This document shows positions 34,599-62,640 of a stretch of 64,000 nucleotides of DNA, piece by piece. The number at the start of each line of letters is the position of its first letter. Position 1 is the first letter of the stretch. This DNA comes from Nitrososphaerales archaeon (GTDB taxonomy: Archaea > Thermoproteota > Nitrososphaeria > Nitrososphaerales > UBA57). The stretch spans positions 27,498 to 91,497 of the forward strand of contig JAKZTE010000001.1 in assembly GCA_047517285.1 (NCBI GenBank), written 5' to 3'. A program made the position numbers and the translations under genes. Under the pieces are notes generated by a model. That model was given only the letters and a program-made list of their open reading frames with translations, was not told where the DNA came from and made no database searches.

Positions 34599-36230
34599 CT
34601 AATCTATTTCAATGTATATTTCTTCATCTTGTATCTTAACATTATATACTGCTAATTCATCTATCGCAGGTGGATTAAGTGATTTACCTGTTTTTAAGTT
34701 AAATTTTGATAAATGCAATGGACATGTTATATCCTCTCCTACTATGAACCCATCTTCTAAATTAACTTCTTGATGGGTACATTGGCCACCAGTTGCAAAT
34801 ATCTTGTTATTAATATTTGATAAAAGAATGTTTTTGCCATCAATTAACATATTCTTCATTTCACCATTCTGTATTTCCGACAGTTTGCAAAGCTTCTTGA
34901 ACTCACCTTTTACGGCCAATATCTCTTCCCGTTCATCCTGAATTGCTGTCAACGATATTTCATCAAACTTGAACTTTATCATTTCGGCGATTTGTTCTTT
35001 AATTGCTTCTACTTCCATTCTTTTTAATATCGATTCTAAAAATCCTGTAACAATTAACTTTATTGCCGCATTCTTATCTAGTGATCTCGATTGCATATAG
35101 AATAATAGATCTTCGTCAATTGGAGCAACTGCTGCGGAATGTTTTGCCTGAACATTTCTATTATTGATCTCTAATCCAGGAATAATATTTGCTCGTGCTT
35201 TATTTCCAAGCAGTATTGCATGCCCTCCTAAAAATGTGTCTGCGTTATGTGCATGCTTTTCGATTTTATTCATTCCTTTTAGTGTCATCTGCGACTTTCC
35301 AGTTAAAACTCCTTTTACATCTACGCTCCCTTTCGTGCCTTTTGCAGAATGGCAAACACTTGTAACTAAATCGTGTCTTTCTTCCTTTGCCCCAATTACT
35401 AGGTGTAAATCTTGTATTGTTGAATTATCACCTATTAAACTCGAATAACTTCTTGATCTAGATACCTTTCCACCTAAATACCCTACTGCCAATTTCACAG
35501 AGCTTTGTTTCCCGATTTCTGCTCTTTTATTCATAAAAGAAATCATATTATTATCAAATAATTGCATCTCAGTAATTGATAATTTTGCATTATTCGCAAC
35601 AAAAATATCTTTTGAATAACCGAATATTGAATCTATATTTTGTGATTTTATCGAAGAATAATGTTCAATAAATAAATTAAAATCTGAATTGTCTTCTAGT
35701 ATTATCAAATTCTTGTTAAATATTCCGCTGTTTGTATTTTCTTGTCTATTGATATATCTGATAGTATCTAACATCTTCACATCTTTTGGAATATGTACAA
35801 ATAATCCAGTTTGAAATATCGCATCCGCAAGATATTCGAACTTATCACGTATGGGATTTTTCTCTATGTACGACTTGACAATATCTGGATATTTACTTAT
35901 TGCTTCATTGATATCTGTTAATATTGCATCATTACTATTCTCAATATTCTTTTCAACAATTTTATTGTTAACCTGTAAAAAGTTGATATGTCTTCCTCTA
36001 TGTTCTGTTTCCGTCTCTTGATTATTTGCCTCAAAATTAATATCTTCTAAACTCAATTTTGTAAGAAAATCATTATATTTCTTAAATAAAATCGATTGTT
36101 CAAAGGATGATTCCTGGAATTTCTTAAAACTTTTTAACCTATATTCTAACATCCAAGATGGCTCGTTGTTCTTCTTTGAAATTACTTTAACTATATCTGT
36201 GGATATGCTGTCAAAAATATTCTTTCGCAT
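34599..36230 (-). CDS. sufD: Fe-S cluster assembly protein SufD fused to a C-terminal Rieske [2Fe-2S] domain
   Basis: The SufBD-family beta-helix core is followed, in the last ~100 aa, by CTHQEVNLEDGFIVGEDITCPLH (CxH-x16-CxxH, the Rieske signature). Confidence 0.8.
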   Translation of the reverse strand: MRKNIFDSISTDIVKVISKKNNEPSWMLEYRLKSFKKFQESSFEQSILFKKYNDFLTKLSLEDINFEANNQETETEHRGRHINFLQVNNKIVEKNIENSNDAILTDINEAISKYPDIVKSYIEKNPIRDKFEYLADAIFQTGLFVHIPKDVKMLDTIRYINRQENTNSGIFNKNLIILEDNSDFNLFIEHYSSIKSQNIDSIFGYSKDIFVANNAKLSITEMQLFDNNMISFMNKRAEIGKQSSVKLAVGYLGGKVSRSRSYSSLIGDNSTIQDLHLVIGAKEERHDLVTSVCHSAKGTKGSVDVKGVLTGKSQMTLKGMNKIEKHAHNADTFLGGHAILLGNKARANIIPGLEINNRNVQAKHSAAVAPIDEDLLFYMQSRSLDKNAAIKLIVTGFLESILKRMEVEAIKEQIAEMIKFKFDEISLTAIQDEREEILAVKGEFKKLCKLSEIQNGEMKNMLIDGKNILLSNINNKIFATGGQCTHQEVNLEDGFIVGEDITCPLHLSKFNLKTGKSLNPPAIDELAVYNVKIQDEEIYIEID

Positions 36231-36249
36231 AATGAAATCTTTTCTCTTT

Positions 36250-37647
36250 TTAACCTATTGAACCTTCCATTTCTAAGGACATCAATTTGTTTAATTCTAC
36301 TGCATATTCCATTGGTAATTCTTTAAGAAATGGTTCAAAAAATCCTAATACTACGATTCTTGTCGCTTCATCTTCTGTCAATCCTCTGGACATTAAATAA
36401 AATAATTGATCCTCACCAATTTTTCCGACAGTTGCTTCATGCGTAAGTGTGGCATCTTCCTCAATAATCTCATTATATGGATAAGTATCAGAAATAGATT
36501 CATCATCTAATATTAAAGCATCACACCTGACAGTAGATTTCACATTTGTTGCTCCTTCTGCAATATGCAATAAACCTCTATAACTGGATCTTCCTCCATC
36601 CTTTGATATGGATTTTGCAATAATTTTTGACGATGTATTAGGTGCAAGGTGTACTACTTTTCCTCCAGAATCTTGATGTTGATTCTTTCCTGCATAAGCA
36701 CAAGATAATATCTCTGCTTTTGCACCATCTCCTAATAGATATACTGCAGGATATTTCATGGTTATTTTACTACCTATATTTCCATCTATCCATTCTACTG
36801 TTGCATTGTCATATGCATGTGCACGTTTTGTCACCAAATTGTATACGTCACTAGACCAATTTTGTATTGTTGTGTAACGAATCTTTGCACCTTTTTTCGC
36901 TATTAATTCTACTACTGCAGAATGTAAAGACTCAGACGAATAAACTGGAGCCGTACATCCCTCAATATAATGCACAGAACTTCCTTCATCAGCTATAATT
37001 AATGTTCTTTCAAATTGACCTATATTTTCCGCATTTATTCTAAAGTAGGCTTGTAATGGCATGTCCACATGTACACCTTTAGGAATATATACAAAAGAAC
37101 CTCCACTCCATACTGCACTGTTCAATGCTGCAAATTTATTATCTTCTGGAGGAATAATTTTACTAAAATATTCTTTCACAAGGTCTTCATGTTTCTCTAA
37201 ACCTTCATCCATTCCATAAAATATCACTCCTTGTTCTTCCAAATCTTTTCTTAGACTGTGATATACTACATCTGATTCATATTGAGCTCCTACTCCTGCT
37301 AAGAACTTTCTTTCCGCTTCTGGTATTCCTAACTTATCAAATGTATTTTTGATATCTTTTGGAACATCGTCCCAATCCTTTGCTTGTTTCTCAGTTGGCC
37401 TAGCGTAATAGTAAATATTATCGAAGTTAATCTGCGATAAATCTGCTCCCCATTTTGGCATCTCTTTTGAGTAAAATAATTTAAGTGATCTTAACCTGAA
37501 GTCAAGCATCCATTCCGGTTCATTTTTTGTTTCCGAAATCATTCTGACTACGTCTTCAGACAAACCTCTTTCGCCTTTATATACATAATTTTTAGTAGAA
37601 TCTTTAAAATCATACTTGTCATAATCAAATGAGACTTCTTCTGTCAT
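36250..37647 (-). CDS. sufB: Fe-S cluster assembly protein SufB
   Basis: Strong SufB pattern throughout ([37 protein letters not shown]). Confidence 0.93.
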
Positions 37648-37756
37648 AGTATATGGTTAATTTTGGCATTTATAGATATTACTATTGTTATATATTTCTA
37701 CTAAAATCTGAATATAAATATCATTTAAATAAACGATTGTGAAAGAGAACCCAGTA

Positions 37757-37858
37757 GGGCCATTAGCTCAGCTTGGTTAGAGTATAACACGGCAAAAGCG
37801 TTCGACTGATAATGTTTCAGACATCGAAAGGCCGAGAGTTCAAATCTCCCATGGCCCA
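37757..37858 (+). tRNA. tRNA-Ile(GAU) with two introns (16 nt at about 26/27 and 11 nt canonical)
   Basis: GGGCCAT TA GCTC AGCTTGGTTA GAGT A [TAACACGGCAAAAGCG] TTCGA CTGATA[ATGTTTCAGAC]A TCGAA AGGCC GAGAG TTCAAAT CTCCC ATGGCCC A. The canonical intron has a clean BHB: CTGA/TCAG helix with bulges TA|A and AC|A. The T stem has one A-C mismatch. Confidence 0.8.
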
Positions 37859-37898
37859 CTATTATTATAAATCTCGATATAATAGAACTATGTGATAT

Positions 37899-38174
37899 AT
37901 GATGACGGAAAAAGATAATGAAAATCAAGAGCTTCTGAATAAGGCCACTGTTATTCTCTTATCCGTATCAGATAATCCAAGTACTCCACGAAATATACGT
38001 AAATTGATTAAAGATTCAATTGACACCCTTAAAGATGAGTCACTTAGTGTAGGTGTTCGAGCTGCAAATGCCATTAGTATGCTTGAAGATGTCTCTCAAG
38101 ACCCCAATATTCCATCATTTTCTCGTGTAACTATTTGGAGTGCTGTTAGTAGCTTAGAAAGTATAAGAGACTAA
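37899..38174 (+). CDS. UPF0147 family protein (conserved archaeal, unknown function)
   Basis: D...PRNIR......I..L........VRAANAIS.LE....DPN.P...R..IW is the pattern I recall for UPF0147. Confidence 0.6.
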   Translation: MMTEKDNENQELLNKATVILLSVSDNPSTPRNIRKLIKDSIDTLKDESLSVGVRAANAISMLEDVSQDPNIPSFSRVTIWSAVSSLESIRD

Positions 38175-38221
38175 CATAAAAAAATAAGAGTTTATTAGTC
38201 TTAACTTTTCAAATAATCATA

Positions 38222-40303
38222 ATGAGTCAAATAACTAAGTTAAACCTTGATGATTTTATTCAAGGTCAATTTAAGAATAACACTGAAATGGTAGTTCGTC
38301 TTAATGATGGATCTATTATATTTGTAGACGAACAAGCCCTTGACAAAAACAAAATGAGTGACGAGGGTTGCCCCGTTAAAACCTTTGGAGTTAGGTATCG
38401 CGTTATGAGTGATGATATGAAAACTGTTACTGCTAAATACCTTATTCCTAATGAAGTTCTAAGTCTTGCTAAAACAAGAGGAAAAGAATTTGCTGGTATA
38501 AAACTTCCTGTGGGTATTCTAACAAATGATCAAACTCCAAAGTTTGGCGTTTGGCTAAAAATTTATCCAAACTTCCAACAAATCGGAACAAACGATCGTG
38601 GTGAAATAGTATTACGTGATCGAAAAGATTTCCAACCCATGACTGGTGCAGTAATTAATTCAAATAACACCATTATAATGGGCCGAGCAGAACGTCTTGT
38701 TACACGTCTATCTAAAGAAGATAGTTCTCTAGATTGTACCGAAGCAGATGCTTGGTTGAAGGCATTTGAAATTCTTGACGATACAGCTACCCTAACTCGC
38801 GACTATCTATGCGCTGGTATTAAATACCGCCATGAAGGAAATGCACCTTATCTAAATATAACTACTGAAGTTAATTTCTTTGATATCCAAGACAAAGAAA
38901 TGCTTGATCTCAGGAGCACTATCCAATCTAGATTTGATAAAATCAATCGAACTATTCCTAATGTTAAGATTAGATCAGTTATCAATCTTCCAAAAACCGA
39001 AGAGGATTTCAAATCAATACTTTCTAAACTACAAGAAAAAGGCTCTTCCGCAAAAGAACTAGGTTTGCCTGAATCTTATTCTGATTCACGATTCTACGAT
39101 CCAAAGAATAATACAATTGCATCATCAAACTTTGTACTATTCGTACCATTGGCAGACTTACCTGACGAGATTACAATCACAACAATTAATACTGATTATC
39201 ATGGTGAAGTAAAGTCTCGTGGTGTATTATCCCCATTGATGGCAATATTATCTCTTGTAAACGTTATTTCTGCACATGCAGGATCAGGTGTTTTAAGCCA
39301 AAATGGAACTGCTACTACATTTACAGGTCCTACAGGCACTGGTAAAACCACTGCAACGTCATTCTTTGCTGAAAAGAATGAAAAGTTTCGAAGACAAGAA
39401 TTACGTCGCAGATACGAAATCATTCTTAAAAAACAACATTCTGACCTTTCTGATAGCGACTTCCAAGTAAAAGTTGACGAAGTAGTTGCAGGAGTTGGTA
39501 TCTTATGCCAAGAAGACTGGATTGAAATTGCAGAAGGAGATGATGGTAAATGGTCATTCTGGCCAACTGAAAAATCTATGTATGCACGAACTGGAGGTTT
39601 CCCAGGATTAGATTTCATTCTAATTGAAAATGAACCTATGCTCGAAAATGCATTAGCAGACTTCGGTGCATCCGGCTGTAAAAAATACCTTGGTAAAGTC
39701 ACACACGAATTCTTCCCTGAAAGAATTTTCTATGAACCAAGTTGGGGTCATTTACTGTATGATCGATCTTCAAGACCAATCTCTGCACATGTATTTCTTG
39801 AAAGAAATGCTGACTTAGATTTCTTTGCAAAACGAGTTAGTGCAAAAGAAGCTGTTGAATACTTACTTGTAGGAAGAACTCCATCAGGTAAATATGAACC
39901 TATGTACAATGCATATCCTGACTTCAGTGGTTTCCTTATGGAACATGGAATAATCGGCCCTAAACTTGTTGAAGCATACGCTAAAGCAAAAGCAGGAGAT
40001 TATTCTGTAATTGGCGCTGGTGATGCATCTACTGGCAAAGCAGTATTTGAAAAGCTAGATATTCAATTACGACTTTGGGAAAAGAGCTGTGAAGTCACGC
40101 CTCCATTCATCGTCAATGGAGCACCTGGACTCTTTATCACACAGGACGTTAATTGGTTGCTCTCCGAGATGCCAGATATATTCGACAATTGGAAACACGT
40201 TACCTTGGATGACTACAAAGCCTTCATGGAAAAGGAATTCGGCGTAACTTACGGTCCAAAAGGCGAATGGACTCATTTGAAAAAATTCAATATTGAATAT
40301 TAG
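38222..40303 (+). CDS. highly divergent ATP-type PEP carboxykinase-like P-loop protein (693 aa)
   Basis: NTDYHGEVKSRG...ISAHAGSG...TFTGPTGTGKTT parallels the ATP-PEPCK core GTDYAGEMKKG...SMHCSAN...FFGLSGTGKTT. Downstream, LCQEDW...DDGKWSFWPTEKSMYART parallels LIGDDEHGW...DDGVFNFEGGCYAKT. It has large extra segments. Confidence 0.5.
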   Translation: MSQITKLNLDDFIQGQFKNNTEMVVRLNDGSIIFVDEQALDKNKMSDEGCPVKTFGVRYRVMSDDMKTVTAKYLIPNEVLSLAKTRGKEFAGIKLPVGILTNDQTPKFGVWLKIYPNFQQIGTNDRGEIVLRDRKDFQPMTGAVINSNNTIIMGRAERLVTRLSKEDSSLDCTEADAWLKAFEILDDTATLTRDYLCAGIKYRHEGNAPYLNITTEVNFFDIQDKEMLDLRSTIQSRFDKINRTIPNVKIRSVINLPKTEEDFKSILSKLQEKGSSAKELGLPESYSDSRFYDPKNNTIASSNFVLFVPLADLPDEITITTINTDYHGEVKSRGVLSPLMAILSLVNVISAHAGSGVLSQNGTATTFTGPTGTGKTTATSFFAEKNEKFRRQELRRRYEIILKKQHSDLSDSDFQVKVDEVVAGVGILCQEDWIEIAEGDDGKWSFWPTEKSMYARTGGFPGLDFILIENEPMLENALADFGASGCKKYLGKVTHEFFPERIFYEPSWGHLLYDRSSRPISAHVFLERNADLDFFAKRVSAKEAVEYLLVGRTPSGKYEPMYNAYPDFSGFLMEHGIIGPKLVEAYAKAKAGDYSVIGAGDASTGKAVFEKLDIQLRLWEKSCEVTPPFIVNGAPGLFITQDVNWLLSEMPDIFDNWKHVTLDDYKAFMEKEFGVTYGPKGEWTHLKKFNIEY

Positions 40304-49991: not shown

Positions 49992-51092
49992 TTGGCAATG
50001 ATTGACAGAAGTATCCTACAAAAAACCGTAAAAAGCTACGATACTAATAATATATCTATTGCTGCCCTTGGTAGCCATTCTGCTCTCGACATCATGGATG
50101 GGGCTACTTCTGAAAATCTAAATACTATAGTAATTTGTCAAAAAGGCCGCGAGACAACATATAAACACTTTCATCGAATTATTAATGATGTCATAACTTT
50201 ACCTAAATTTTCCGATTTACTTACCGACGACGTACAAAAATCCTTAATCTCTAATAATTCTATTTTAATTCCTCATCGTTCATTCACTACATACATTGAT
50301 TATGATTCTATTGAAAATAACCTTCAAGTTCCTATCTTTGGTAATAGAGAAATGCTACGCACTGAAGAAAGAAATGTTGAAAAAAACCAATATTATCTTC
50401 TTGAAAAAGCTAACATTAAATATCCTAAATTATTTAACAAACCTGAAGATATTGATCGCCTTGTAATCGTAAAGGTAATGGAATCAACACGTAAAATTGA
50501 ACGTGCATTCTTTACAGCTTCTAGTTTTAAAGAATTCAATGAAAAAGCAGAAAAACGTATTGCTCAAGGTATAATAAATGCCGAGGATTTAGCTGATGCA
50601 CGTATAGAAGAGTTTGTTTTAGGCACTTATTTTAATTTTAATTTCTTTTATTCAATACTTCATGATCGTGTAGAATTTCTTGGCATAGATCGACGTCTAC
50701 AGACCAATCTTAATGACTTCACTTCATTACCTGCCAAACAACAACTGGAGATTGATGTCGAATTACAGAATATTGAAGTCGGACATATGCCTGCCACAAT
50801 TCGTGAATCATTTCTTGAAAAAGTTTTTGAAATGGGTAATAAATTTGTCGACTCTACTAAAAAAGAATTTGATCCAGGTATGATTGGACCATTTGCATTA
50901 CAAAGCGCAATTACAAAAGACTTTGAACTAGTTGTATTTGATGTTTCACCTCGTGTTCCTGGAAGTCCTGTTTTAATGATGAGCCCTTACACTCACTATT
51001 ATTATGGCGAATCATTTGGCGCTGGTAAAAGAATCGCAATGGAAATATCTGAAGCAATAAAAGAAGAACGATTAGATGAGGTGGTTACCTGA
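49992..51092 (+). CDS. purP: 5-formaminoimidazole-4-carboxamide ribonucleotide (FAICAR) synthetase PurP
   Basis: N-terminal IAALGSHSALDI and the ATP-grasp core, with DRRLQTN...E and a C-terminal region typical of archaeal PurP. Confidence 0.8.
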   Translation: MAMIDRSILQKTVKSYDTNNISIAALGSHSALDIMDGATSENLNTIVICQKGRETTYKHFHRIINDVITLPKFSDLLTDDVQKSLISNNSILIPHRSFTTYIDYDSIENNLQVPIFGNREMLRTEERNVEKNQYYLLEKANIKYPKLFNKPEDIDRLVIVKVMESTRKIERAFFTASSFKEFNEKAEKRIAQGIINAEDLADARIEEFVLGTYFNFNFFYSILHDRVEFLGIDRRLQTNLNDFTSLPAKQQLEIDVELQNIEVGHMPATIRESFLEKVFEMGNKFVDSTKKEFDPGMIGPFALQSAITKDFELVVFDVSPRVPGSPVLMMSPYTHYYYGESFGAGKRIAMEISEAIKEERLDEVVT

Positions 51093-51106
51093 ATAGTATT
51101 GCTACT

Positions 51107-52114
51107 TTGGGTTCTCATTGTGCTTTACAAGTCCTCAAAGGCGCTAAAGAAGAGGGTTTTAATACAGTCTTGGTTACTAAATCGTCTCGAGAAAAACTCT
51201 ATAGACGATATGATTTTATTGACGAATATATTGTCGTAGAAGATTTCCAAGAAATTACGAATGAGGATATCACAAATAAACTGACGGAACTGGATTCAAT
51301 TTTAATTCCTCATGGCACTTTAATTTCTGAAGTAGGAATTGAAAAAATCGAAAAACTTAATGTTCCAATCTTTGGAAACAGACATATCTTACGATGGGAA
51401 GCAGATCGAGATCTTAAAACTAAATTAATGGAAAAATCAGGTGTTTCTATTCCGAAAATATTCAATTCTCCAGAAGAAATTGATTGCCTAACAATTTCTA
51501 AATTGTCCGGAGCTCGTGGAGGCTCTGGTTATTTTCTTGCTAAAAATTCAGAAGATTATTATTCTAACGTGGATAAATTCAAAAAACAAGGTTTAATGAC
51601 TGATGCAGACGAACTCCAAATACAAGAGTACATTGTAGGCGTTCCAGTATATTTGCAATACTTTCAGTCTCCTCTCAAAAATGAATTGGAACTCTTTGGA
51701 ATAGATAAACGATATGAAACTAATGTCGATAGTTTAGGACGGATTCCAAGTACTGACCAAAATGAACTTAAAATATCTCCTACGTATATCGTAGTTGGTA
51801 ACCTGCCTCTAGTTCTCAGAGAATCTCTCCTTGTCGAAGTATATGATATTGGGGACAACTTTGTAACAGCAAGTAAAGAGTTAGTTCCACCAGGTATGCC
51901 TGGACCATTTTGTATGGAGGGCGTTTATGATTCAAATGGAAAATTCATTGCATTTGAATTTTCTGCTCGTATAGTTGCTGGTACTAATATATTTACTACA
52001 GGTTCACCATATTCTTACTTGACTCATGGCGCAAATATGAGTATGGGTAGAAGAATTGCTTTAGAAATCAAAACTGGCATCGACAATAACACATTAGATG
52101 ATTTACTTACATGA
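51107..52114 (+). CDS. PurP paralog (second FAICAR synthetase-like ATP-grasp protein)
   Basis: TLGSHCALQVLKGAKEEGFNTVLV and colinear similarity to the upstream PurP. The start is TTG at 51107; an in-frame stop at 51077 limits any 5' extension. Confidence 0.75.
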   Translation: MGSHCALQVLKGAKEEGFNTVLVTKSSREKLYRRYDFIDEYIVVEDFQEITNEDITNKLTELDSILIPHGTLISEVGIEKIEKLNVPIFGNRHILRWEADRDLKTKLMEKSGVSIPKIFNSPEEIDCLTISKLSGARGGSGYFLAKNSEDYYSNVDKFKKQGLMTDADELQIQEYIVGVPVYLQYFQSPLKNELELFGIDKRYETNVDSLGRIPSTDQNELKISPTYIVVGNLPLVLRESLLVEVYDIGDNFVTASKELVPPGMPGPFCMEGVYDSNGKFIAFEFSARIVAGTNIFTTGSPYSYLTHGANMSMGRRIALEIKTGIDNNTLDDLLT

Positions 52115-54895: not shown

Positions 54896-56095
54896 TCACT
54901 TTGTATGTATGTTCGCAGAATTATTTAAAGCATTTAACAATGGTAATTCTTCACCAGTGAGATACCTAATTAATGCACCTCCTGCTGTACTGACATGATA
55001 AATCTTGTCCTTCAAATCTAATTGTGAAAGTACTGCACTTAGATGACCTCCACTGGTTATCGTTCTCGCATTTGTATTTGATAATTTAGTAAGAATTTCC
55101 GTAGTTCCAAGCCTAAATTCAGAATTCTCAAACATCCCTAATGGCCCTGTTATGAAAATATTTTCCGCATTATCAATCTGTTGAGAATATTTATTGATAG
55201 TTTTTTGCCCAATATCAAAAATCCGATCTGATAAATCTAGTTCTGATAAAGATTTTTCTATTCTCTTTCCATCAACTTCTACTGCAACGTCATCTGCTAA
55301 CATGAATTTTTCTGGATATTTCTCTAATAATAATTTTGCAGTATTGATTGATTCTTCATCATCTATTGACGTCACTTCCAGAGGAACTTTTTTAGTTGCT
55401 GCCAAAAAAACATTTCCAATTAAACCACCTAATAACACTTTTTCTATTCTGCCTGCTTCAATTAATTTTTGAATTGATTTTAACCTATCGGGAATTTTTG
55501 CACCACCTAAGATTGCAGTAAATTTTGTATTAGAATCTTCAACTATTCCTTTTAACGCATTGACTTCCCGTTCAACAATCTTACCTGCACACGTCGGTAT
55601 TAGTTCTGCAAATCCTACTATGGATGGGTGTGATCTATGCGATGTTGAAAATGCATCTAATACACAATAATCTATATGTTCTGCTAATTTACTAACAAGA
55701 TGCGATTTAACCGCATCTTTAGGTAACATTTCTGCATTTTCTTCTGCTGTAAATCTTAGATTGTCTAATAATAATATATCTCCTGTCTTGAGATTCTTTA
55801 TTGTATTTATTGCAGTAGGTCCAAAAACATCTGGAACAAAATTTATTTTTCTATTTAATAACTTTGAAAGTGCAGGGGCATGCTGTTCCATTGAAACATA
55901 GTCTGATTTTCCTAGTCGACCCTGGTGAGACGCGACAATTAATTTCGAATCTTTTAGTGCATCAATAGTTTCTGCAACTTCTAATAATCGTGAATCATCT
56001 AGTATCTTTAACGAGTCTGGATCAATAGGACTATTTATATCACATCGTAAGAAAACTGTCTTTCCCTTGATGTCTAAGTCTTGTATTGATAGCAT
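54896..56095 (-). CDS. pgk: phosphoglycerate kinase
   Basis: V.LR.D.N.P, ASHQGR and the C-terminal SGGH/STAGGA motifs. Length is 399 aa. Confidence 0.93.
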   Translation of the reverse strand: MLSIQDLDIKGKTVFLRCDINSPIDPDSLKILDDSRLLEVAETIDALKDSKLIVASHQGRLGKSDYVSMEQHAPALSKLLNRKINFVPDVFGPTAINTIKNLKTGDILLLDNLRFTAEENAEMLPKDAVKSHLVSKLAEHIDYCVLDAFSTSHRSHPSIVGFAELIPTCAGKIVEREVNALKGIVEDSNTKFTAILGGAKIPDRLKSIQKLIEAGRIEKVLLGGLIGNVFLAATKKVPLEVTSIDDEESINTAKLLLEKYPEKFMLADDVAVEVDGKRIEKSLSELDLSDRIFDIGQKTINKYSQQIDNAENIFITGPLGMFENSEFRLGTTEILTKLSNTNARTITSGGHLSAVLSQLDLKDKIYHVSTAGGALIRYLTGEELPLLNALNNSANIHTK

Positions 56096-56123
56096 GTTTA
56101 ATCATACTCCCCGATTATAATTC

Positions 56124-57041
56124 TTATTCGAGTGTATCTTTTATTGTTCTGGCAATTACGTCAGATACACTGACATAACTAACTGGACTTGGAACTGTAT
56201 CTGTTCCCACCACTATTGAAACACCAGAATTGTATATGTTTGCTAGGGCCGAGTCAAATGGCGTTTTTCCACGAAGTACAGGATGCGTACATCCAACGAC
56301 AATTTTACCTGCGCCTGCTTCTTGAATTAATTTTACTGCTTCAATAATTGTACCGCCAGAACTAATGATGTCGTCAATGATGACAACATCTTTTCCCTTT
56401 ACGGGAAGAAGTTTACCCTCCCTTGTAGTAATGCTGACTTCTGTAGCACTGTATCTTGTTTTAAACATAATCTCATAATCAACTCCCATTGTCTCTGCAG
56501 CTACTTTTGCCCATTGTTCTGATTCTTCATCAGGTCCTATGACTAATGTATTCTGTAATCCTGCATTCTCTTTAATCCATTTTGCAATATCTGGAACTGC
56601 ACTGAGATTCTTTGTAGGAGTATTCTTGATTAAATCACTCAAATCATTAACTCTCTGAAGATGCAAGTCAATTGTATAGATCATATCTATTCCTAAATTA
56701 TCTATTATTTTAGAAACTAAATGGAAACTTCCAGGTTCGCCTGGATTGAATCTAGAATCTTGTCGAGCATATGCGAAGTATGGCACAAATGTAGTAATTG
56801 ATTTTGCCTTTCCATCCTTCAATGCAGAACAAATTAAAAGATATTCAATAAATAATTCATCTGGTTTCAAACCCATTGGATGAATTAATACAACATCTTC
56901 ATTCTCAATTTCATCATGATAGCGAACATATTTTTCACCATCTGGAAACTTTGTTATTTCAATCTGACCTAGTTTCGCATCAAGTAATTTAGCTACTTTT
57001 GTTGCCAAAACTTGGCCTTCTGATCCACCGTATATTATCAT
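56124..57041 (-). CDS. prs: ribose-phosphate pyrophosphokinase (PRPP synthetase)
   Basis: FPDGE, YARQD, DLH and the PRPP-binding loop VVIIDDIISSGGT. Confidence 0.9.
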   Translation of the reverse strand: MIIYGGSEGQVLATKVAKLLDAKLGQIEITKFPDGEKYVRYHDEIENEDVVLIHPMGLKPDELFIEYLLICSALKDGKAKSITTFVPYFAYARQDSRFNPGEPGSFHLVSKIIDNLGIDMIYTIDLHLQRVNDLSDLIKNTPTKNLSAVPDIAKWIKENAGLQNTLVIGPDEESEQWAKVAAETMGVDYEIMFKTRYSATEVSITTREGKLLPVKGKDVVIIDDIISSGGTIIEAVKLIQEAGAGKIVVGCTHPVLRGKTPFDSALANIYNSGVSIVVGTDTVPSPVSYVSVSDVIARTIKDTLE

Positions 57042-57054
57042 TTCATATTACCTT

Positions 57055-58029
57055 TTACATCAGTTCTATTAAATCTTTTATTACTAAAGATGCAGCTGAA
57101 GGCGGTATTATACCTTTCTCAGTAACAATAATGTCAATATTCTCTGGCGGCGTTACATCAAATACAGGATTTCTAATTTTTATATTCGGATATGCTTTTA
57201 GATATTCTTCTGAACAAACTTCTGTAGCATCTCTTTCTTCAATTTCTGTAAGTTCTCCATACATTGTATCTGCATAAAATTTGTATGTCTCTGCTGCAGC
57301 CATTAATTTAACACGTGATTCATGAGCTATTGCAGCTAATTGAGACGTACCTATTTTATTAACTAAAGCTCCATTAACTGCTACTGCATCTGCTCCACAT
57401 ACTGCACGATCAACTTTATCCATAAATCTTCTTACTGCAGAATCTATTATTATCGTGACGTCACAACCATGTTTGGACAATGTTGCTGCAGTCTTATGAC
57501 CCTGAAACAATGGCCTAGTTTCACAACAAATTATCTTTATTCCTTTACCCATGTCATGGGCTTTTTTTAATATGCTTATTGCAGCCTCACTATTACATAT
57601 TGTAATTACTGTATCACCATTTCTAACTCGCTTTCCACCATATTCGCCAATTTTATTATAGGCGTCTAAACTGTTATGCACGAATTGTTCTGCCGCCTTA
57701 ATAGTAACTTCTTTTATGTTATCTGAAGATTCCCCTGCGTTGTAAGATTTTCTAGTCGATGCTAAAACAATATTTACTCCGTTTGGAAGTGAAACTGCAG
57801 TTGGTCTGGCAGATCGTAATTTTTTCCCTTCTTTCATTATATTGTTATAGAACTGTTCACGATCTGAACTGTTCGTATTCTCTACATAATTCTTTAAAGC
57901 ACTTGCCGCTAATCTTGCAATTCGTCCTGCCCCGTGAATACGCATATCTTTAATTTGGCTGTACGCTGTATCTACATCAATATCTACGACCCCCGAAACT
58001 GTGGGAATATTAATTGGATCTTCTACCAT
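57055..58029 (-). CDS. eIF-2B alpha/beta/delta-like family protein, probable ribose-1,5-bisphosphate isomerase
   Basis: RIHGAGRIA, TICNSEA (conserved Cys) and CGADAVAVNGALVNKIGT are family motifs. The assignment to R15P isomerase rather than MtnA or aIF-2B rests on the linkage to RuBisCO. Confidence 0.65.
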   Translation of the reverse strand: MVEDPINIPTVSGVVDIDVDTAYSQIKDMRIHGAGRIARLAASALKNYVENTNSSDREQFYNNIMKEGKKLRSARPTAVSLPNGVNIVLASTRKSYNAGESSDNIKEVTIKAAEQFVHNSLDAYNKIGEYGGKRVRNGDTVITICNSEAAISILKKAHDMGKGIKIICCETRPLFQGHKTAATLSKHGCDVTIIIDSAVRRFMDKVDRAVCGADAVAVNGALVNKIGTSQLAAIAHESRVKLMAAAETYKFYADTMYGELTEIEERDATEVCSEEYLKAYPNIKIRNPVFDVTPPENIDIIVTEKGIIPPSAASLVIKDLIELM

Positions 58030-58142
58030 ATCAATAAAAAATATTACTAATACCTTACTTAAGTGTTGAGAAATATTTTTTAATTACGAAATTGGGAATT
58101 TAAAATTTTTTATAGTTGAATAAAAGAATTAATATAATACTC

Positions 58143-58793
58143 ATGAAAATTGCACCATCGATGTTAGCATCAAAACCTGAAAATTATGTCCAAGACGTAC
58201 AAATTCTAGAAAAGGCCAATGTTGAGTGGTTTCATATAGATGTGTTAGACGGAACTTTTACTGATACATATGCCTTTCCTGTAGAACATCTTGAAATTAT
58301 TAATAATGCAACAGACTTTCCCATGGATATTCATTTAATGACAAACCATGCAATTGAGTCTCTTCCTAAATATATTGAAGCTGGCGGTGATATGCTTACG
58401 GCCCATGTAGAAGCAGTAAACCCAAGAAAGTATATCGACGCTGTTAAAAAACATGATAAAATGGTCGGCCTTGCAATTAATCCTGACACCCCTCTTTCTT
58501 CTATCATAGACTACATCGATGAATTAGATAGAATATTGGTTATGACTGTAGTTCCTGGTAAAACAGGTCAATCATTTATAGAATATCCCTTATCAAAGGT
58601 CAGAGAAGCTCGCGCACTTATTGACAAACATCAATATAATGTAGAATTATGTGTAGATGGAGGAATCAATGAAAAAACAGCACCACTTGCTTTTGAAGCA
58701 GGTGTTGACGTAGTTGTTTGTGGAGCTGGAATTCTCTATAAAGATGATATGATTCAAGCAGTTGAAGATTTACGTGCACTTGCATCTAAATAA
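58143..58793 (+). CDS. rpe: ribulose-phosphate 3-epimerase
   Basis: MKIAPSMLA, H.DV.DG.F, H.M, V.PG..GQ.F and DGG. The ATG at 58143 fits the family N-terminus better than the track TTG at 58116. Confidence 0.9.
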   Translation: MKIAPSMLASKPENYVQDVQILEKANVEWFHIDVLDGTFTDTYAFPVEHLEIINNATDFPMDIHLMTNHAIESLPKYIEAGGDMLTAHVEAVNPRKYIDAVKKHDKMVGLAINPDTPLSSIIDYIDELDRILVMTVVPGKTGQSFIEYPLSKVREARALIDKHQYNVELCVDGGINEKTAPLAFEAGVDVVVCGAGILYKDDMIQAVEDLRALASK

Positions 58794-58803
58794 AAAATAT
58801 ATT

Positions 58804-60816
58804 TTATTTCTTCAATAATTCAAGACTTTTATTTACAACATTATCTACAGTAAAACCAAATTTCTTCATAACTTCATTTCCAGGGGCCGACGTACCAAAA
58901 GTTGTCATCCCAATTGCCTTTCCTTCTAAACCAATATATTTTTCCCAACCAAATGTACTTGCCGCTTCAACTGAAACTCGTTTTTTGATTGCAATTGGTA
59001 ATACTTGTTCTTTATAATCGTCTGATTGTTTTTCAAATAATTCCCAACTTGGTATACTTACTACCCTGACATTTACTCCCTTGTTTTTCAATTCTTTCTG
59101 AGCTTCAACAGCCAAGTGTAATTCAGAACCAGTTGCAATTATAATTAATTCCGGCAATCCATCTGAATCAACAAGTGTATATCCACCTTTTTGTAAATTT
59201 TCAGGTGAAGAAACCTCATTTTTATTTGACTCTCCATATAAAACAGGTAATGCTTGTCTTGTAAGGATTAAAGCAGTAGGACCACTTGTTATTTGCAATG
59301 CAGTTTTCCACGCTATCACTGTTTCATTTGCATCTCCTGGTCTTATTACAGTAAGATTGGGTACTGCCCGTAAATTCGATACTTGTTCTATGGGTTGATG
59401 TGTAGGTCCATCTTCACCTACTCCTATACTATCGTGTGTATAGACAAAAACAATCCGTAAGCCCATTAATGATGCTAAACGTATCGATCCTCTCATATAA
59501 TCCGAGAAAATCAGGAATGTACTTCCAAAAGGAATTACTCCGCCGTATGCTGCCATTCCATGTAGAATTGCACCCATTGCATGTTCCCTTATACCAAAGT
59601 GAATATTTCGTCCATGAGGAGCTTCTGGCAACGAATCAACCGAAGTTTTAATTCGTACATTTGTAGAATCCATTAAATCTGCAGATCCACCAATTATTGC
59701 AGGAATATTCTCAGCTAATATATTTAGTGTTTTTCCTGATGCCTGTCTTGTTGCAAGAGATTCATCTAAATTGAATATTGGTGTGTTTTTATCCCAATTT
59801 TCTGGCAGCTTTCCTCTAATCAAATTCTCAAATTCTTCTGCTAATTCTTTATTGCCATTCTTATATGATTCATAAATCTCATTCCATCTTCTTTCATAGT
59901 CATTTCCATTCGTTACAACTTTCTGAAATTCTTGTTTTACTTCATCAGGAATGTGAAATGTAGGTTCAAGAGGCCAATCTAGATTTTCTTTAGTCAATTT
60001 AGTTTCATCCGGTCCTAAAGGCGCTCCGTGTGCAGCTTCACTGTCTTGTTTATTAGGACTACCAAAACCAATATGCGTTCGTGCTATGATTAGAGATGGT
60101 TTCTCTTCTTGCCCTTGGCTATTTTTTATTGCTTCACTAAAATCTTGTAAATCATTTCCTTCAATATTCTGAACAAACCACCCATGAGCTTCAAATCTCT
60201 TTTTTATATCTTCTTTTGTGGTTAGTTCTGTATTTCCATCAATGCTGATATGATTATCTAAGTAGACGTATATTAAATTGTTAAACTTTTGATGACCTGC
60301 AACCGCAGCCGCCTCTGAAGAAATTCCTTCCATTAAATCTCCATCACTACAAAATGCGTATATTTTATGGTCGATAATTTTATGATTCTTTGTATTGAAT
60401 CTATTAGCTAAATATCTCTGCGCAAACGCCATTCCAATACCTGCACTGAATCCTTGTCCTAATGGTCCAGTTGTTGTTTCTACACCTGGCGTTTCTCCAT
60501 ATTCAGGATGACCCGGCGCTTTACTTCCAATCTGCCTAAAATTTTTAATCTCGTCTAAAGCAAGATCATATCCACACAGATGCAGTAAAGAATATAGTAT
60601 CATTGAACCATGTCCCGACGATAAAATAAACCGATCTCGGTTAGCCCATTTTGGATTGCTAGGATTATGCTTTAGTATCTGTGTAAACAATTTGTAGCCC
60701 ATTGCTGCTGCCTCCATGGGTTGACCAGGATGGCCTGATTTTGCTGCTTCTACAGCATCCACCGACAAAAATCTAATCGTATTAATACATAATTCTTCAA
60801 TCTTCTCGTTTGTCAT
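58804..60816 (-). CDS. tkt: transketolase (single full-length polypeptide)
   Basis: SGHPG, the GHGS.L.Y..LHL region, the GDG.L.EG TPP motif (SDGDLMEG) and THDSIGVGEDGPTHQP. Confidence 0.95.
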   Translation of the reverse strand: MTNEKIEELCINTIRFLSVDAVEAAKSGHPGQPMEAAAMGYKLFTQILKHNPSNPKWANRDRFILSSGHGSMILYSLLHLCGYDLALDEIKNFRQIGSKAPGHPEYGETPGVETTTGPLGQGFSAGIGMAFAQRYLANRFNTKNHKIIDHKIYAFCSDGDLMEGISSEAAAVAGHQKFNNLIYVYLDNHISIDGNTELTTKEDIKKRFEAHGWFVQNIEGNDLQDFSEAIKNSQGQEEKPSLIIARTHIGFGSPNKQDSEAAHGAPLGPDETKLTKENLDWPLEPTFHIPDEVKQEFQKVVTNGNDYERRWNEIYESYKNGNKELAEEFENLIRGKLPENWDKNTPIFNLDESLATRQASGKTLNILAENIPAIIGGSADLMDSTNVRIKTSVDSLPEAPHGRNIHFGIREHAMGAILHGMAAYGGVIPFGSTFLIFSDYMRGSIRLASLMGLRIVFVYTHDSIGVGEDGPTHQPIEQVSNLRAVPNLTVIRPGDANETVIAWKTALQITSGPTALILTRQALPVLYGESNKNEVSSPENLQKGGYTLVDSDGLPELIIIATGSELHLAVEAQKELKNKGVNVRVVSIPSWELFEKQSDDYKEQVLPIAIKKRVSVEAASTFGWEKYIGLEGKAIGMTTFGTSAPGNEVMKKFGFTVDNVVNKSLELLKK

Positions 60817-60913
60817 TATTGATACCTTTTCTTACCTATTAGTGAAATTAAGCCATATATAAATCGAAAAGAAAGATTTTATTATAGCAAAAATTGTATA
60901 ATAATGATAATAG

Positions 60914-61606: not shown

Positions 61607-61609
61607 GGA

Positions 61610-62569: not shown

Positions 62570-62585
62570 TCTCTAATTACCCATA

Positions 62586-62612
62586 ATAGGAATTCCTATA
62601 AACCTATAAATA
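62586..62612 (+). promoter_or_regulatory. 14-bp perfect palindrome ATAGGAATTCCTAT followed by a TATA-like box (CTATAAATA) about 30 nt upstream of the RuBisCO ATG
   Basis: Read directly: palindrome at 62586..62599, TATA-like CTATAAATA at 62604..62612, ATG at 62641. The spacing fits an archaeal promoter with a very short leader. Confidence 0.4.
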
Positions 62613-62640
62613 TCCCAAAGCACAATTTTTTTTGATTAAG

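What the first reader, a model, noticed from the sequence alone, without database searches (positions are those of the whole stretch)
38222..40303. 693-aa, highly divergent PEP-carboxykinase-like P-loop protein
The central region reproduces the order and spacing of ATP-PEPCK core motifs:
- NTDYHGEVKSRG (compare GTDYAGEMKKG)
- SAHAGSG (compare SMHCSAN, the metal-binding His)
- GPTGTGKTT at 39326..39352 (compare GLSGTGKTT)
- LCQEDW...DDGKWSFWPTEKSMYART (compare LIGDDEHGW..DDGVFNFEGGCYAKT)

Several features depart from the family. The protein is about 150 aa longer than E. coli PckA. It has a roughly 35-aa charged insertion (EKNEKFRRQELRRRYEIILKKQHSDLSDSDF) between the P-loop and the kinase-2 Asp. 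Its N-terminal domain is barely recognisable. I could not find the ENTR-type Arg.

It could be a genuine but very divergent gluconeogenic PEPCK, since ppsA, tpiA and pgk are nearby. It could also be a PEPCK-fold kinase with a different phospho-acceptor. Because the RuBisCO module in this window lacks an assigned kinase or phosphatase step, its substrate is worth testing.
Basis: partly seen in the sequence, partly recalled or inferred. Interest (0 to 1): 0.6.

Follow-up and report, generated by a model that had tools for sequence, protein, structure and literature searches.

The report
Orphan PEP-carboxykinase-like enzyme, marine archaeon
This gene encodes a real, well-conserved enzyme with the overall shape and most catalytic residues of PEP carboxykinase, but it belongs to a small unstudied branch of that superfamily found only in uncultured microbes, so its exact reaction still has to be measured.

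Summary
It is a true PEPCK-superfamily protein. Pfam PEPCK_ATP just passes threshold on an 85-residue core. Profile-profile alignment to canonical ATP-PEPCKs gives 95.9% probability. A confident AlphaFold model (pLDDT 91) matches ATP-PEPCK crystal structures full-length (Foldseek E~1e-14, 12% identity).

Three things differ from canonical PEPCK:
- the Mn-ligand Lys213 is replaced by Ser-Arg;
- a 42-residue helical hairpin with an invariant Arg cluster follows the P-loop;
- a ~110-aa N-terminal module has no fold match.

The family is tiny and isolated (52 hits among 1.84 billion representatives). It occurs only in uncultured lineages: heterotrophic marine Thaumarchaeota (the host), Eisenbacteria, Binatia and myxobacteria-like MAGs. 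The archaeal copies nest among bacterial ones, which suggests horizontal transfer. dN/dS is ~0.1. No conserved operon and no link to the RuBisCO module 16-22 kb away was found.

Best guess: a working nucleotide-dependent OAA/PEP carboxykinase (~0.5). The main rival is a different acceptor or reaction (~0.35), because Binatota appear to carry a canonical pckA as well. It is a new variant of a known kind.

The parts
38222..40303 (+). Coding sequence of the 693-aa PEPCK-superfamily protein
   Evidence: ORF list. Its exact sequence occurs on 29 public contigs. dN/dS is 0.09-0.14 among five marine thaumarchaeal orthologues. AF2 pLDDT 91.4.
38191..38197 (+). TTTATTA, a TATA-box-like element ~28 nt before the ATG, preceded by an A-rich stretch. 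It suggests an own promoter and a leaderless mRNA (inference only).
   Evidence: Read directly from the sequence. Not tested; the sigma-70 scan is irrelevant for an archaeon.
38222..38554 (+). N-terminal extension, aa 1-111: a family-specific alpha/beta module with no counterpart in canonical PEPCK
   Evidence: It lies outside the hhalign match, which starts at aa 112. It is the least conserved region (0.26 identity to non-archaeal members). Modelled alone, aa 1-145 reach pLDDT 82.9 and have no Foldseek PDB match (best E=0.41).
38555..39106 (+). N-terminal (substrate-binding) domain core, aa 112-295
   Evidence: Covered by the full-length Foldseek alignments to PEPCK and by the global hhalign, but not significant by sequence on its own.
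38681..38707 (+). GRAERLVTR loop, aa 154-162: candidate counterpart of the PckA TGRSPKDK loop that carries R65. R155 is Arg in 40/45 members, R158 in 44/45 and R162 in 45/45.
   Evidence: hhalign mapping and column counts. Low-confidence alignment. The 37%-identity subfamily has Leu155 but keeps R158 and R162.
39188..39223 (+). NTDYHGEVKSRG, aa 323-334: Y326 = PckA Y207 and K331 = K212. The Lys213 (Mn ligand) position is occupied by S332/R333, and there is an extra near-invariant H327.
   Evidence: HMMER and hhalign alignments. Conservation is 41-44 of 45.
39269..39289 (+). SAHAGSG, aa 350-356: H352 = PckA H232 (Mn ligand), invariant
39326..39352 (+). Walker A / kinase-1a P-loop GPTGTGKTT, aa 369-377 (K375 = K254, T376 = T255)
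39359..39496 (+). Family-specific helical hairpin insertion, aa 380-425 (helices 388-405 and 411-424). The first helix carries invariant R391, E393, L394, R396, R397 and Y398; the second helix and linker are variable.
   Evidence: Secondary structure of the AF2 model. K254->D269 is 15 residues in PckA against K375->D432 = 57 here. Conservation is 0.69 for aa 380-400 against 0.17 for aa 401-425. Invariant columns are listed.
39503..39520 (+). Kinase-2 strand LCQEDW, aa 428-433: E431/D432 are proposed equivalents of PckA D268/D269 (Mn ligand)
   Evidence: Strand order in the model (E426-428, E433-438, E444-447, E453-456) and near-invariance. hhalign itself misplaces this segment across the insertion, so this mapping is my inference.
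39557..39592 (+). FWPTEKSMYART, aa 446-457: E450 = PckA E282 (invariant), Y454 = Y286, R456 = K288
39713..39739 (+). FPERIFYEP, aa 498-506: R501 is the proposed equivalent of PckA R333 (the ENTR Arg), invariant 45/45
   Evidence: hhalign mapping. The spacing K288->R333 = 45 equals R456->R501 = 45, and the following FLT/FLE strand sits at +26 in PckA against +24 here. Beta-strand 501-504 in the model.

Best explanation
The gene encodes a catalytically competent, nucleotide-triphosphate-dependent enzyme of the PEP-carboxykinase superfamily. It most likely interconverts oxaloacetate and phosphoenolpyruvate.

Proposed mechanism, by analogy with E. coli PckA:
- The Walker-A loop (K375, T376) holds Mg-NTP.
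- H352 and D432 hold the second metal. S332/R333, and perhaps H327, take the place of the usual Lys ligand.
- Y326, K331, R501 and an Arg of the GRAERLVTR loop hold oxaloacetate or the enolate plus CO2.
- The gamma-phosphate is transferred to the enolate of pyruvate.

In this small-genome heterotrophic marine thaumarchaeon it is the only PEPCK-like gene found in the stored part of the published pangenome table. The enzyme could draw PEP from the TCA cycle for gluconeogenesis. Run in reverse, it could give PEP an exit towards oxaloacetate in an organism with no recognised pyruvate kinase.

The gene was probably acquired from bacteria.

What is shown: the fold, the motif conservation, purifying selection and the distribution. 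What is inferred: the substrate, the metal usage, the nucleotide and the physiological direction.
For: Fold:
- The AF2 model has pLDDT 91.4 and pTM 0.88.
- The top 35 Foldseek PDB hits are all ATP-PEPCKs (E 6e-15 to 1e-12, probability 1.0, 530-710 aligned columns), followed by GTP-PEPCKs.

Sequence:
- PF01293 passes its gathering threshold.
- hhalign against 9 canonical ATP-PEPCKs gives 95.9% probability, E=5e-9, over aa 112-681 against PckA 6-528.

Residues:
- Y207, K212, H232, the whole P-loop, E282, Y286, K288(R) and R333 have counterparts conserved in 41-45 of 45 family members.
- Anchor spacings match PckA to within 0-2 residues, apart from the one insertion.
- These residues go beyond a generic P-loop; they are the PEPCK-specific metal and substrate set.
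- The PDB entry 2py7 (E. coli K213S with ATP-Mg2+-Mn2+, listed) shows that a Ser at position 213 still allows Mn binding in the crystal.

Selection:
- dN/dS is 0.09-0.14.
- The 90%-identity cluster has 228 members.

Host context:
- The HMT pangenome table, as far as it is stored, lists this family (cluster_2502, 689 aa, 6 genomes, no_ko) as its only 'carboxykinase' entry.
- The paper states that the PEP-to-pyruvate step is unresolved and that the organism has a TCA cycle, beta-oxidation and ppsA.
- ppsA, tpiA and pgk are in the same window.

Origin:
- The archaeal clade nests among bacterial sequences.
- The closest outgroup, P0006, lies on a contig that carries bacterial-type genes such as a sigma-70 factor.
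Against: - The Mn-ligand Lys213, invariant in my 9 canonical sequences, is replaced by Ser-Arg in 44/45 members.
- The adenine-stacking R449 aligns to Ala, though in a low-confidence region.
- The equivalence of R65 is uncertain, and the deeper subfamily has Leu at that column.
- The N-terminal domain is not alignable by sequence.
- Curated PEPCK equivalog models score 10-23 bits against cut-offs of 369-815, and KEGG assigned no KO.
- The Binatota paper reports pckA in all genomes, using HMM hits of at least 100 bits. This family reaches only 2-31 bits against a canonical PEPCK HMM. Binatota carriers, including UBA1149 = L029, therefore probably hold a canonical PEPCK as well, which argues against simple redundancy.
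- The strongly conserved Arg-rich helix next to the P-loop and the extra N-terminal module have no role in the canonical mechanism.
- No operon context supports a gluconeogenic role.
Confidence: 0.5

Rival explanations
1. It is a PEPCK-fold phosphotransferase or lyase that has diverged to a different substrate or a different metal chemistry. Examples would be another 2-oxo or enol acid, or a larger and more anionic phospho-acceptor held by the Arg-rich helix. Under this reading it works alongside, not instead of, a canonical PEPCK.
For: - Extreme isolation in sequence space: only 52 hits at E<=1e-3 among 1.84 billion representatives, and canonical PEPCKs are barely reached. The score gap against a canonical HMM is 2-31 against 509-881 bits.
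- Lys213 is replaced by Ser-Arg, and there is a new near-invariant His327.
- A 42-residue insertion whose first helix (R390/R391/R396/R397, Y398) is as conserved as the catalytic core.
- A novel N-terminal module.
- Probable coexistence with canonical pckA in Binatota.
- Tight same-strand linkage to glutamine-dependent NAD synthetase in six Eisenbacteria/Binatia loci (gaps -8 to +1), and an adenosine deaminase just downstream in P0006's contig. These are weak hints towards nucleotide-related chemistry.
Against: - The residues that in PckA contact oxaloacetate, CO2 or PEP, as opposed to the nucleotide (Y207, K212, R333, probably the R65 loop, and the His/Asp metal site), are the ones best conserved. 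That would not be expected if the acceptor had changed radically.
- No alternative substrate is suggested by any conserved neighbourhood across clades.
- In the host archaeon no other PEPCK was found in the stored part of the table.
Confidence: 0.35
2. It supplies the RuBisCO module of this genome, for example by phosphorylating a pentose phosphate to make ribose-1,5-bisphosphate or ribulose-1,5-bisphosphate.
For: The window does carry RuBisCO (cut, ~62.6-64.0 kb), an IF-2B-family (R15P-isomerase-like) gene, PRPP synthetase, transketolase and transaldolase. The published model for this lineage has steps of 'uncertain enzymology'.
Against: - The gene is 16-22 kb from that module, with unrelated genes in between.
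- tblastn with RuBisCO, the isomerase, PRPP synthetase, PGK and transketolase finds none of them in 38 loci that carry the family.
- Most carriers are bacteria with other neighbourhoods.
- The conserved active-site set is that of an oxo-acid carboxykinase.
- The published route for this lineage starts from PRPP, and converting PRPP to R15P would, on my reading, need a phosphohydrolase and not a kinase.
Confidence: 0.03
3. It is a non-catalytic (pseudoenzyme, regulatory or scaffolding) member of the family.
For: Some relatives have lost the P-loop Lys or the metal Asp yet keep the insertion's Arg cluster: P0009 K375M; P0064 K375Q/D432N; P0060 D432G; P0085 with GPAGPARA. The fold therefore can serve a role independent of catalysis.
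Against: The window protein and all its close marine orthologues keep every catalytic residue under strong purifying selection.
Confidence: 0.03

Closest known systems
ATP-dependent PEP carboxykinase (PckA; Pfam PF01293, EC 4.1.1.49), e.g. E. coli 1aq2/2pxz and Thermus 1j3b
   Same: - Two-domain PEPCK fold (Foldseek E~1e-14).
- Same order and spacing of motifs: Y-x-G-E-x-K, the His motif, the GxxGxGKTT P-loop, the acidic kinase-2 strand, E...YA(K/R)T, and R-x-x-Y.
   Different: - ~12% identity, and scores of 10-31 bits against full-length PEPCK models.
- 153 aa longer.
- Lys213 replaced by Ser-Arg.
- A 42-residue helical insertion after the P-loop.
- A ~110-aa N-terminal module with no fold match.
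- The N-domain is unalignable by sequence.
- The adenine pocket is not recognisably conserved.
GTP-dependent PEP carboxykinase (EC 4.1.1.32), e.g. M. tuberculosis 4wie, rat 4gnm, Polaromonas 9e32
   Same: Same superfamily fold. Second tier of Foldseek hits (E 1e-10 to 1e-8).
   Different: Weaker structural match than the ATP type. No Pfam hit to GTP-type models even at E<=10.
Other orphan PEPCK-like proteins found by the profile search (P0123, 745 aa; P0128, 556 aa, with a weak HPr-kinase C-terminal hit)
   Same: They share the Y-G-x-L-K-S-(K/W) variant of the Lys motif with an inserted Ser, the His motif and a GxxGxGK(T/S)T P-loop. They have no Pfam assignment.
   Different: Only E~1e-4 to 1e-6 to this family's profile. 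They lack the Arg-rich insertion. They are likewise uncharacterised.
HPr kinase/phosphorylase (PEPCK-like P-loop domain)
   Same: A P-loop domain of the same structural class (my own knowledge).
   Different: No Pfam Hpr_kinase hit for this protein at E<=10. The first 50 Foldseek hits listed are all PEPCKs. This protein has the PEPCK N-terminal domain and the Mn-site His and Asp.

Membership tests
PEPCK superfamily (fold level) | Two-domain PEPCK architecture recognisable by structure comparison | tested here: met
   AF2 pLDDT 91.4. Foldseek PDB top 50 are all PEPCKs; best E=6e-15, probability 1.0, TM (target-normalised) ~0.5, 530-710 aligned columns.
ATP-PEPCK (PF01293 / PckA, EC 4.1.1.49) | Pfam PF01293 score above the gathering threshold | tested here: met
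   27.9 bits against 26.5, but only aa 294-379 match profile positions 148-227 of 465. This is a marginal, partial match.
ATP-PEPCK (PF01293 / PckA, EC 4.1.1.49) | Full-length match to curated PckA equivalog or subfamily models (TIGR00224, NF006819-23) | tested here: not met
   10.5-23.2 bits against cut-offs of 369-815. 26.5 bits against my own canonical HMM, where canonical sequences score 509-881. KEGG gave no KO.
ATP-PEPCK (PF01293 / PckA, EC 4.1.1.49) | Kinase-1a P-loop GxxGxGKT with Lys254 and Thr255 | tested here: met
   GPTGTGKTT, aa 369-377. K375 is conserved in 43/45 and T376 in 41/45.
ATP-PEPCK (PF01293 / PckA, EC 4.1.1.49) | Mn2+ ligands His232 and Asp269 | tested here: met
   H352 is invariant. 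D432 in LCQEDW is >=90% conserved. The Asp assignment rests on strand order and spacing, not on hhalign.
ATP-PEPCK (PF01293 / PckA, EC 4.1.1.49) | Mn2+ ligand Lys213 (second Lys of the GEMKKG motif) | tested here: not met
   The motif is GEVKSRG. HMMER puts S332 at position 213; hhalign puts R333 there. There is no Lys in 45/45 members (44 Arg, 1 His).
ATP-PEPCK (PF01293 / PckA, EC 4.1.1.49) | Substrate/CO2-binding Tyr207 and Lys212 | tested here: met
   Y326 in 41/45 and K331 in 44/45, within the high-confidence aligned core.
ATP-PEPCK (PF01293 / PckA, EC 4.1.1.49) | Arg333 of the ENTR motif (binds the phosphoryl group and oxaloacetate) | tested here: met
   R501 is invariant (45/45), aligned by hhalign, lies exactly 45 residues after YA(K/R)T as in PckA, and sits on a beta-strand. 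This is motif- and spacing-based; no 3D superposition was possible.
ATP-PEPCK (PF01293 / PckA, EC 4.1.1.49) | Arg65 of the N-terminal domain (binds the oxaloacetate/PEP carboxylate) | tested here: inconclusive
   R155 aligns (40/45) but in a low-confidence region, and the deep subfamily has Leu there. Nearby R158 (44/45) and R162 (45/45) are alternatives.
ATP-PEPCK (PF01293 / PckA, EC 4.1.1.49) | Adenine-binding residues (Arg449, Ile450, Ile452, Thr455), i.e. ATP specificity | tested here: inconclusive
   They align to A607, V608, E610 and C623, but with no alignment confidence.
ATP-PEPCK (PF01293 / PckA, EC 4.1.1.49) | Catalysis of OAA + ATP <-> PEP + ADP + CO2 | not testable with these tools
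   No member of this family comes from a cultured organism, and no paper describing it was found.
GTP-PEPCK (PF00821/PF17297) | Match to GTP-type PEPCK models | tested here: not met
   No such Pfam hit at E<=10. Foldseek hits are weaker than to the ATP type.
HPr kinase/phosphorylase | Match to Hpr_kinase domains or structures | tested here: not met
   No Pfam hit. None among the top 50 structural matches.
Anti-phage defence proteins | Match to any PADLOC model | tested here: not met
   0 families at E<=0.01.

The most novel reading that the evidence does not exclude
This is the founding, still uncharacterised member of a separate nucleotide-dependent clade of the PEPCK superfamily. Its second-metal site has been rebuilt (Lys replaced by Ser-Arg, plus a new His), and it has gained an Arg-rich helix beside the P-loop and a new N-terminal module. 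On this reading it catalyses a reaction other than the classical OAA/PEP interconversion. It coexists with canonical PEPCK in Binatota, has spawned catalytically dead offshoots, and was passed from bacteria to heterotrophic marine Thaumarchaeota.
Probability: 0.3. Interest if true: 0.7.

Novelty: new variant of a known kind. Interest (0 to 1): 0.45.

Why it matters
PEPCK sits at the PEP-pyruvate-oxaloacetate node, which decides whether carbon goes to sugar synthesis or to respiration. Heterotrophic marine Thaumarchaeota are abundant in the dark ocean. Their published metabolic maps leave this node open and omit this gene, which received no KO.

If the protein is a working PEPCK, it closes that gap. 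It would also show that the Mn-binding Lys, thought essential, can be replaced.

If it does something else, it is a new enzyme activity on an old fold, shared by several phyla known only from metagenomes. In that case the automatic database label 'PEPCK (ATP)' would be misleading, and carbon-flow models built on it would be wrong.

Tried and rejected
- Model coordinates are not exposed, so no 3D superposition on PckA-ligand complexes could be made. Residue equivalences therefore rest on profile alignment, motif spacing and secondary structure.
- hhalign of the N-terminal 295 aa alone (probability 0.15%) and of the part after the insertion alone (E=0.022) gave nothing significant.
- Fold search of aa 1-145 alone found nothing.
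- Comparison with a divergent haloarchaeal PEPCK was no closer (probability 23%).
- Neighbourhood clustering over 38 loci plus the window found no neighbour conserved across clades. Several apparent overlapping upstream 'genes' in high-GC loci are Arg-rich spurious ORFs.
- tblastn for RuBisCO-module genes, ppsA, TIM or canonical PEPCK near family members found none. Only SufB recurred.
- PADLOC gave no hit.
- Literature searches for this family, for PEPCK in these lineages and for 'PEPCK-like' proteins found no description of this family.
- The GC content of the gene (37.3%, z=1.7; GC3 z=0.9) shows no recent-transfer signature.
The Binatota argument is therefore indirect.
- The antisense ORF 39199..39702 (167 aa) and other overlapping ORFs were not examined further. 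I treat them as by-products of the long conserved + strand frame.
Full report
**1.

The ORF listing gives an ATG-initiated ORF at 38222..40303 (+) of 693 aa.
- NTDYHGEVKSRG, aa 323-334
- SAHAGSG, aa 350-356
- GPTGTGKTT, aa 369-377 = nt 39326..39352
- the charged stretch, aa 384-414
- LCQEDW...FWPTEKSMYART, aa 428-457

The gene is real. Its exact product is on 29 public contigs from NCBI, JGI, ENA, Logan and Tara data, and its 90%-identity cluster has 228 members. Nei-Gojobori dN/dS against four orthologues is 0.09-0.14.

A TTTATTA element about 28 nt before the ATG, behind an A-rich stretch, suggests an own archaeal promoter and a leaderless transcript. This is read and is inference only.

The neighbours are:
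- a 91-aa UPF0147 protein, 47 nt upstream on the same strand;
- SufB and a SufD-Rieske fusion further upstream on the other strand;
- a convergent M48 (HtpX-like) peptidase 7 nt downstream.

**2. It is a PEPCK-superfamily protein**

Sequence evidence:
- Pfam PF01293 (PEPCK_ATP) scores 27.9 bits against a cut-off of 26.5, but only over aa 294-379.
- Curated full-length PckA models score 10-23 bits against cut-offs of 369-815.
- phmmer against PDB sequences finds only PEPCKs, best E=0.0019, over aa 322-379.

For a stronger test I built a 45-sequence family alignment (A1). I also built a reference alignment of nine canonical ATP-PEPCKs taken from E. coli and from the plasmid collection. hhalign between the two gives 95.9% probability, E=5e-9, spanning aa 112-681 against PckA 6-528.

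Structural evidence:
- AlphaFold2 on A1 gives a confident model (pLDDT 91.4, pTM 0.88).
- Foldseek against the PDB returns ATP-PEPCKs as the top 35 hits (E 6e-15 to 1e-12, probability 1.0, 530-710 aligned columns, ~12% identity).
- GTP-PEPCKs follow at E 1e-10 to 1e-8.

**3. Residue anatomy**

From the profile-profile alignment and column counts, the mapping from E. coli PckA to this protein is:

| PckA residue | This protein | Conservation in the family |
|---|---|---|
| Y207 | Y326 | 41/45 |
| K212 | K331 | 44/45 |
| H232 | H352 | 45/45 |
| P-loop G248..T256 | G369..T377 | K375 43/45 |
| E282 | E450 | 45/45 |
| Y286 | Y454 | 44/45 |
| K288 | R456 | 44/45 |
| R333 | R501 | 45/45 |

It is supported by spacing:
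- K288->R333 is 45 residues, and R456->R501 is also 45.
- The next hydrophobic strand follows at +26 in PckA and +24 here.
- Y207->H232 is 25 against 26.
- H232->K254 is 22 against 23.

hhalign misplaces the kinase-2 Asp pair across the insertion.

The departures from canonical PEPCK are:
- **Lys213.** The Mn-ligand Lys213 is absent. The motif is GEVK-S-R-G, so position 213 is S332 by HMMER or R333 by hhalign. The neighbouring H327 is a new near-invariant His.
- **Insertion.** K375->D432 is 57 residues against 15 in PckA, a 42-residue insertion. In the model it forms a helical hairpin (helices 388-405 and 411-424). Its first helix (R390, R391, E393, L394, R396, R397, Y398) is as conserved as the catalytic core (0.69 against 0.68 identity to non-archaeal members). 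The second helix is variable (0.17).
- **N-terminal extension.** aa 1-111 precede the region alignable to PckA and are the least conserved part (0.26). Modelled alone (pLDDT 82.9), aa 1-145 have no structural match in the PDB (best E=0.41).
- **R65 counterpart.** It is uncertain. R155 aligns, but the N-domain is not significantly alignable on its own and a deep subfamily has Leu155. R158 and R162 in the same loop are more conserved.
- **Adenine pocket.** It cannot be mapped, so nucleotide specificity is open.

**4. The family and its distribution**

The word-indexed search found 78 relatives:
- 88-92% identical marine sequences;
- a band at ~50% identity;
- a deeper subfamily at 36-38%.

An exhaustive HMM scan of 1.84 billion cluster representatives found only 52 hits at E<=1e-3. 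Nearly all were members or fragments. Canonical PEPCK fragments appear only at E~5e-4. Against my canonical PEPCK HMM the family scores 2-31 bits, while canonical enzymes score 509-881, with nothing in between.

In one genome per species of GTDB, 38 loci carry it:
- heterotrophic marine Thaumarchaeota MAGs (90-96% identity; ATL, ASW8, ALOHA bins). These identify the window's organism.
- MAGs labelled Eisenbacteria, Binatia, Deltaproteobacteria/Myxococcales, Acidobacteria gp22 and UBP10.
- one groundwater 'Thaumarchaeota' bin.

None of the 38 is a cultured organism.

A neighbour-joining tree nests the marine archaeal clade among bacterial sequences. Its nearest outgroup, P0006, lies on a contig with bacterial-type genes (sigma-70 factor, FtsX, S41 peptidase). 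Transfer from bacteria to the archaeal lineage is therefore the simplest reading. GC and GC3 of the gene are within the host range, so the transfer is not recent.

Databases label members either 'hypothetical protein' or, automatically, 'phosphoenolpyruvate carboxykinase (ATP)'. The paper describing the host lineage lists the family in its pangenome table (cluster_2502, 689 aa, 6 genomes, PEPCK_ATP 29.6 bits, no KO). It does not use the gene in its metabolic reconstruction. No paper describing the family was found.

**5. Context**

Gene neighbourhoods are conserved within clades but not between them:
- **Marine archaea:** SufD-SufB / tRNA / UPF0147 / gene / HtpX / ABC transporter.
- **Eisenbacteria type:** SufBC, LuxC/LuxE-like genes, and a glutamine-dependent NAD synthetase directly upstream on the same strand (gaps -8 to +1 nt in six loci).
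- **Myxo/Binatia type:** MoaE, MoaB-like, MiaB-like, a JAB-domain protein upstream, and LPG-synthase-like membrane proteins downstream.

None of these points to a pathway.

The window's RuBisCO module lies 16-22 kb away: pgk, PRPP synthetase, an IF-2B-family isomerase, transketolase, transaldolase and a RuBisCO cut by the window end. None of these genes occurs near the family's gene elsewhere.

**6. What it most likely does**

The residues retained are not just a P-loop. They are the PEPCK-specific set that holds the second metal, the enolate/oxaloacetate and the transferred phosphate. I therefore favour a working NTP-dependent oxaloacetate/PEP carboxykinase (confidence ~0.5).

Physiologically this fits a host that respires amino and fatty acids through a TCA cycle, has ppsA but no recognised pyruvate kinase, and has no other 'carboxykinase' in the stored part of its pangenome table.

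The PDB entry for E. coli K213S with ATP-Mg-Mn (2py7, listed) shows that a Ser at that position does not preclude Mn binding.

Three things count against a simple reading:
- the lost Lys;
- the conserved Arg-rich helix and the extra module, which have no canonical role;
- an indirect sign of coexistence with canonical PEPCK.

On the last point, the Binatota study reports pckA in all genomes using HMM hits of at least 100 bits. This family can never reach that score. Binatota carriers, including UBA1149 (locus L029), therefore probably have both enzymes.

That keeps a diverged function at ~0.35. A RuBisCO-feeding kinase (~0.03) and a non-catalytic role (~0.03) are unlikely for this copy. However, a clade of relatives has lost the P-loop Lys or the metal Asp while keeping the insertion's Arg cluster. 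This suggests that the helix serves a structural or binding role independent of catalysis.

**7. Verdict**

The finding is real, and the fold assignment is correct. The protein fails the full-length membership tests for PckA and one defining catalytic residue (Lys213). It meets the fold test and most of the active-site tests. It is best described as a new variant within the PEPCK superfamily, unstudied, and sometimes auto-labelled as ordinary PEPCK.

Interest is moderate (0.45):
- It would fill a gap in the carbon metabolism of an abundant deep-ocean archaeal group.
- It offers a natural experiment on the PEPCK metal site.
- The function is not established, and the most likely outcome is a known reaction.

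Noticed in passing
window 37757..37859 (+): An intron-containing tRNA-Ile(GAU) lies between SufB and the UPF0147 gene. ARAGORN finds it only with its intron option (16-nt intron reported, gene ~103 nt, so possibly a second intron). The default ARAGORN run and Rfam (E<=0.01) both missed it. The 67-aa ORF 37725..37928 (-) overlapping it is therefore spurious.
   Followed up: partly
window 34599..37647 (-); loci L008, L009, L012, L013, L016, L034, left edges: Suf iron-sulfur assembly genes lie within ~8 kb upstream of the PEPCK-like gene both in the marine archaea and in the Eisenbacteria/Binatia carriers. The archaeal SufB is 49-66% identical to theirs. This could be chance or a trace of co-transfer. 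I did not test whether the archaeal SufB is closer to bacterial than to other thaumarchaeal SufB.
   Followed up: no
window 34599..36230 (-): The SufD/SufB-core protein carries a C-terminal Rieske [2Fe-2S] domain (Pfam SUFBD_core plus Rieske), which I take to be an unusual fusion.
   Followed up: no
loci L008, L009, L013, L016, L030, L034 (~7.8-8.0 kb in each): A glutamine-dependent NAD+ synthetase (CN_hydrolase + NAD_synthase) sits directly upstream of the PEPCK-like gene on the same strand, with gaps of -8 to +1 nt, which looks like an operon. In P0006's contig an adenosine deaminase follows ~100 nt downstream. Any functional meaning is unknown.
   Followed up: partly
proteins P0009, P0060, P0064, P0065, P0085, P0090, P0092 (relatives, not in the window): A clade of relatives has lost catalytic residues: P-loop Lys to Met or Gln, metal Asp to Asn or Gly, or the whole P-loop. 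It keeps the invariant Arg cluster of the insertion and R501. These are probable pseudoenzymes derived from this family.
   Followed up: partly
proteins P0123 (745 aa) and P0128 (556 aa): Two further PEPCK-like P-loop proteins have the Y-G-x-L-K-S-x motif, the His motif and GxxGxGK(T/S)T, with no Pfam family (P0128 has only a weak HPr-kinase C-terminal hit). They hint at more uncharacterised branches of this superfamily.
   Followed up: no
locus L026 (CAXQPB010000101.1, labelled Nitrosopumilus sp.): This contig has the same gene order as the Myxococcales/Binatia loci (MoaE, MiaB-like, hydrolase, JAB protein, gene, LPG-synthase-like), and its protein clusters with them. It is probably a bacterial contig mis-binned into an archaeal MAG.
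   Followed up: partly
window 54896..64000: A pentose/RuBisCO cluster: pgk (54896..56095, -), PRPP synthetase (56124..57041, -), IF-2B-family isomerase (57055..58029, -), transketolase (58804..60816, -), transaldolase (60914..61606, +), an NAD-dependent epimerase (61610..62569, +) and a RuBisCO large-subunit-like gene running off the window end (~62.6-64.0 kb, +).
   Followed up: partly
window 49992..52114 (+): Two tandem paralogues with DUF1246 + DUF1297 domains, which I recognise as the PurP (archaeal FAICAR synthetase) type, lie side by side.
   Followed up: no
window 38222..40303 versus loci L002-L005: The window protein is 693 aa, whereas its marine orthologues are 688 aa. The tblastn matches cover query residues 1-687, so the difference is at the C-terminus.
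   Followed up: partly
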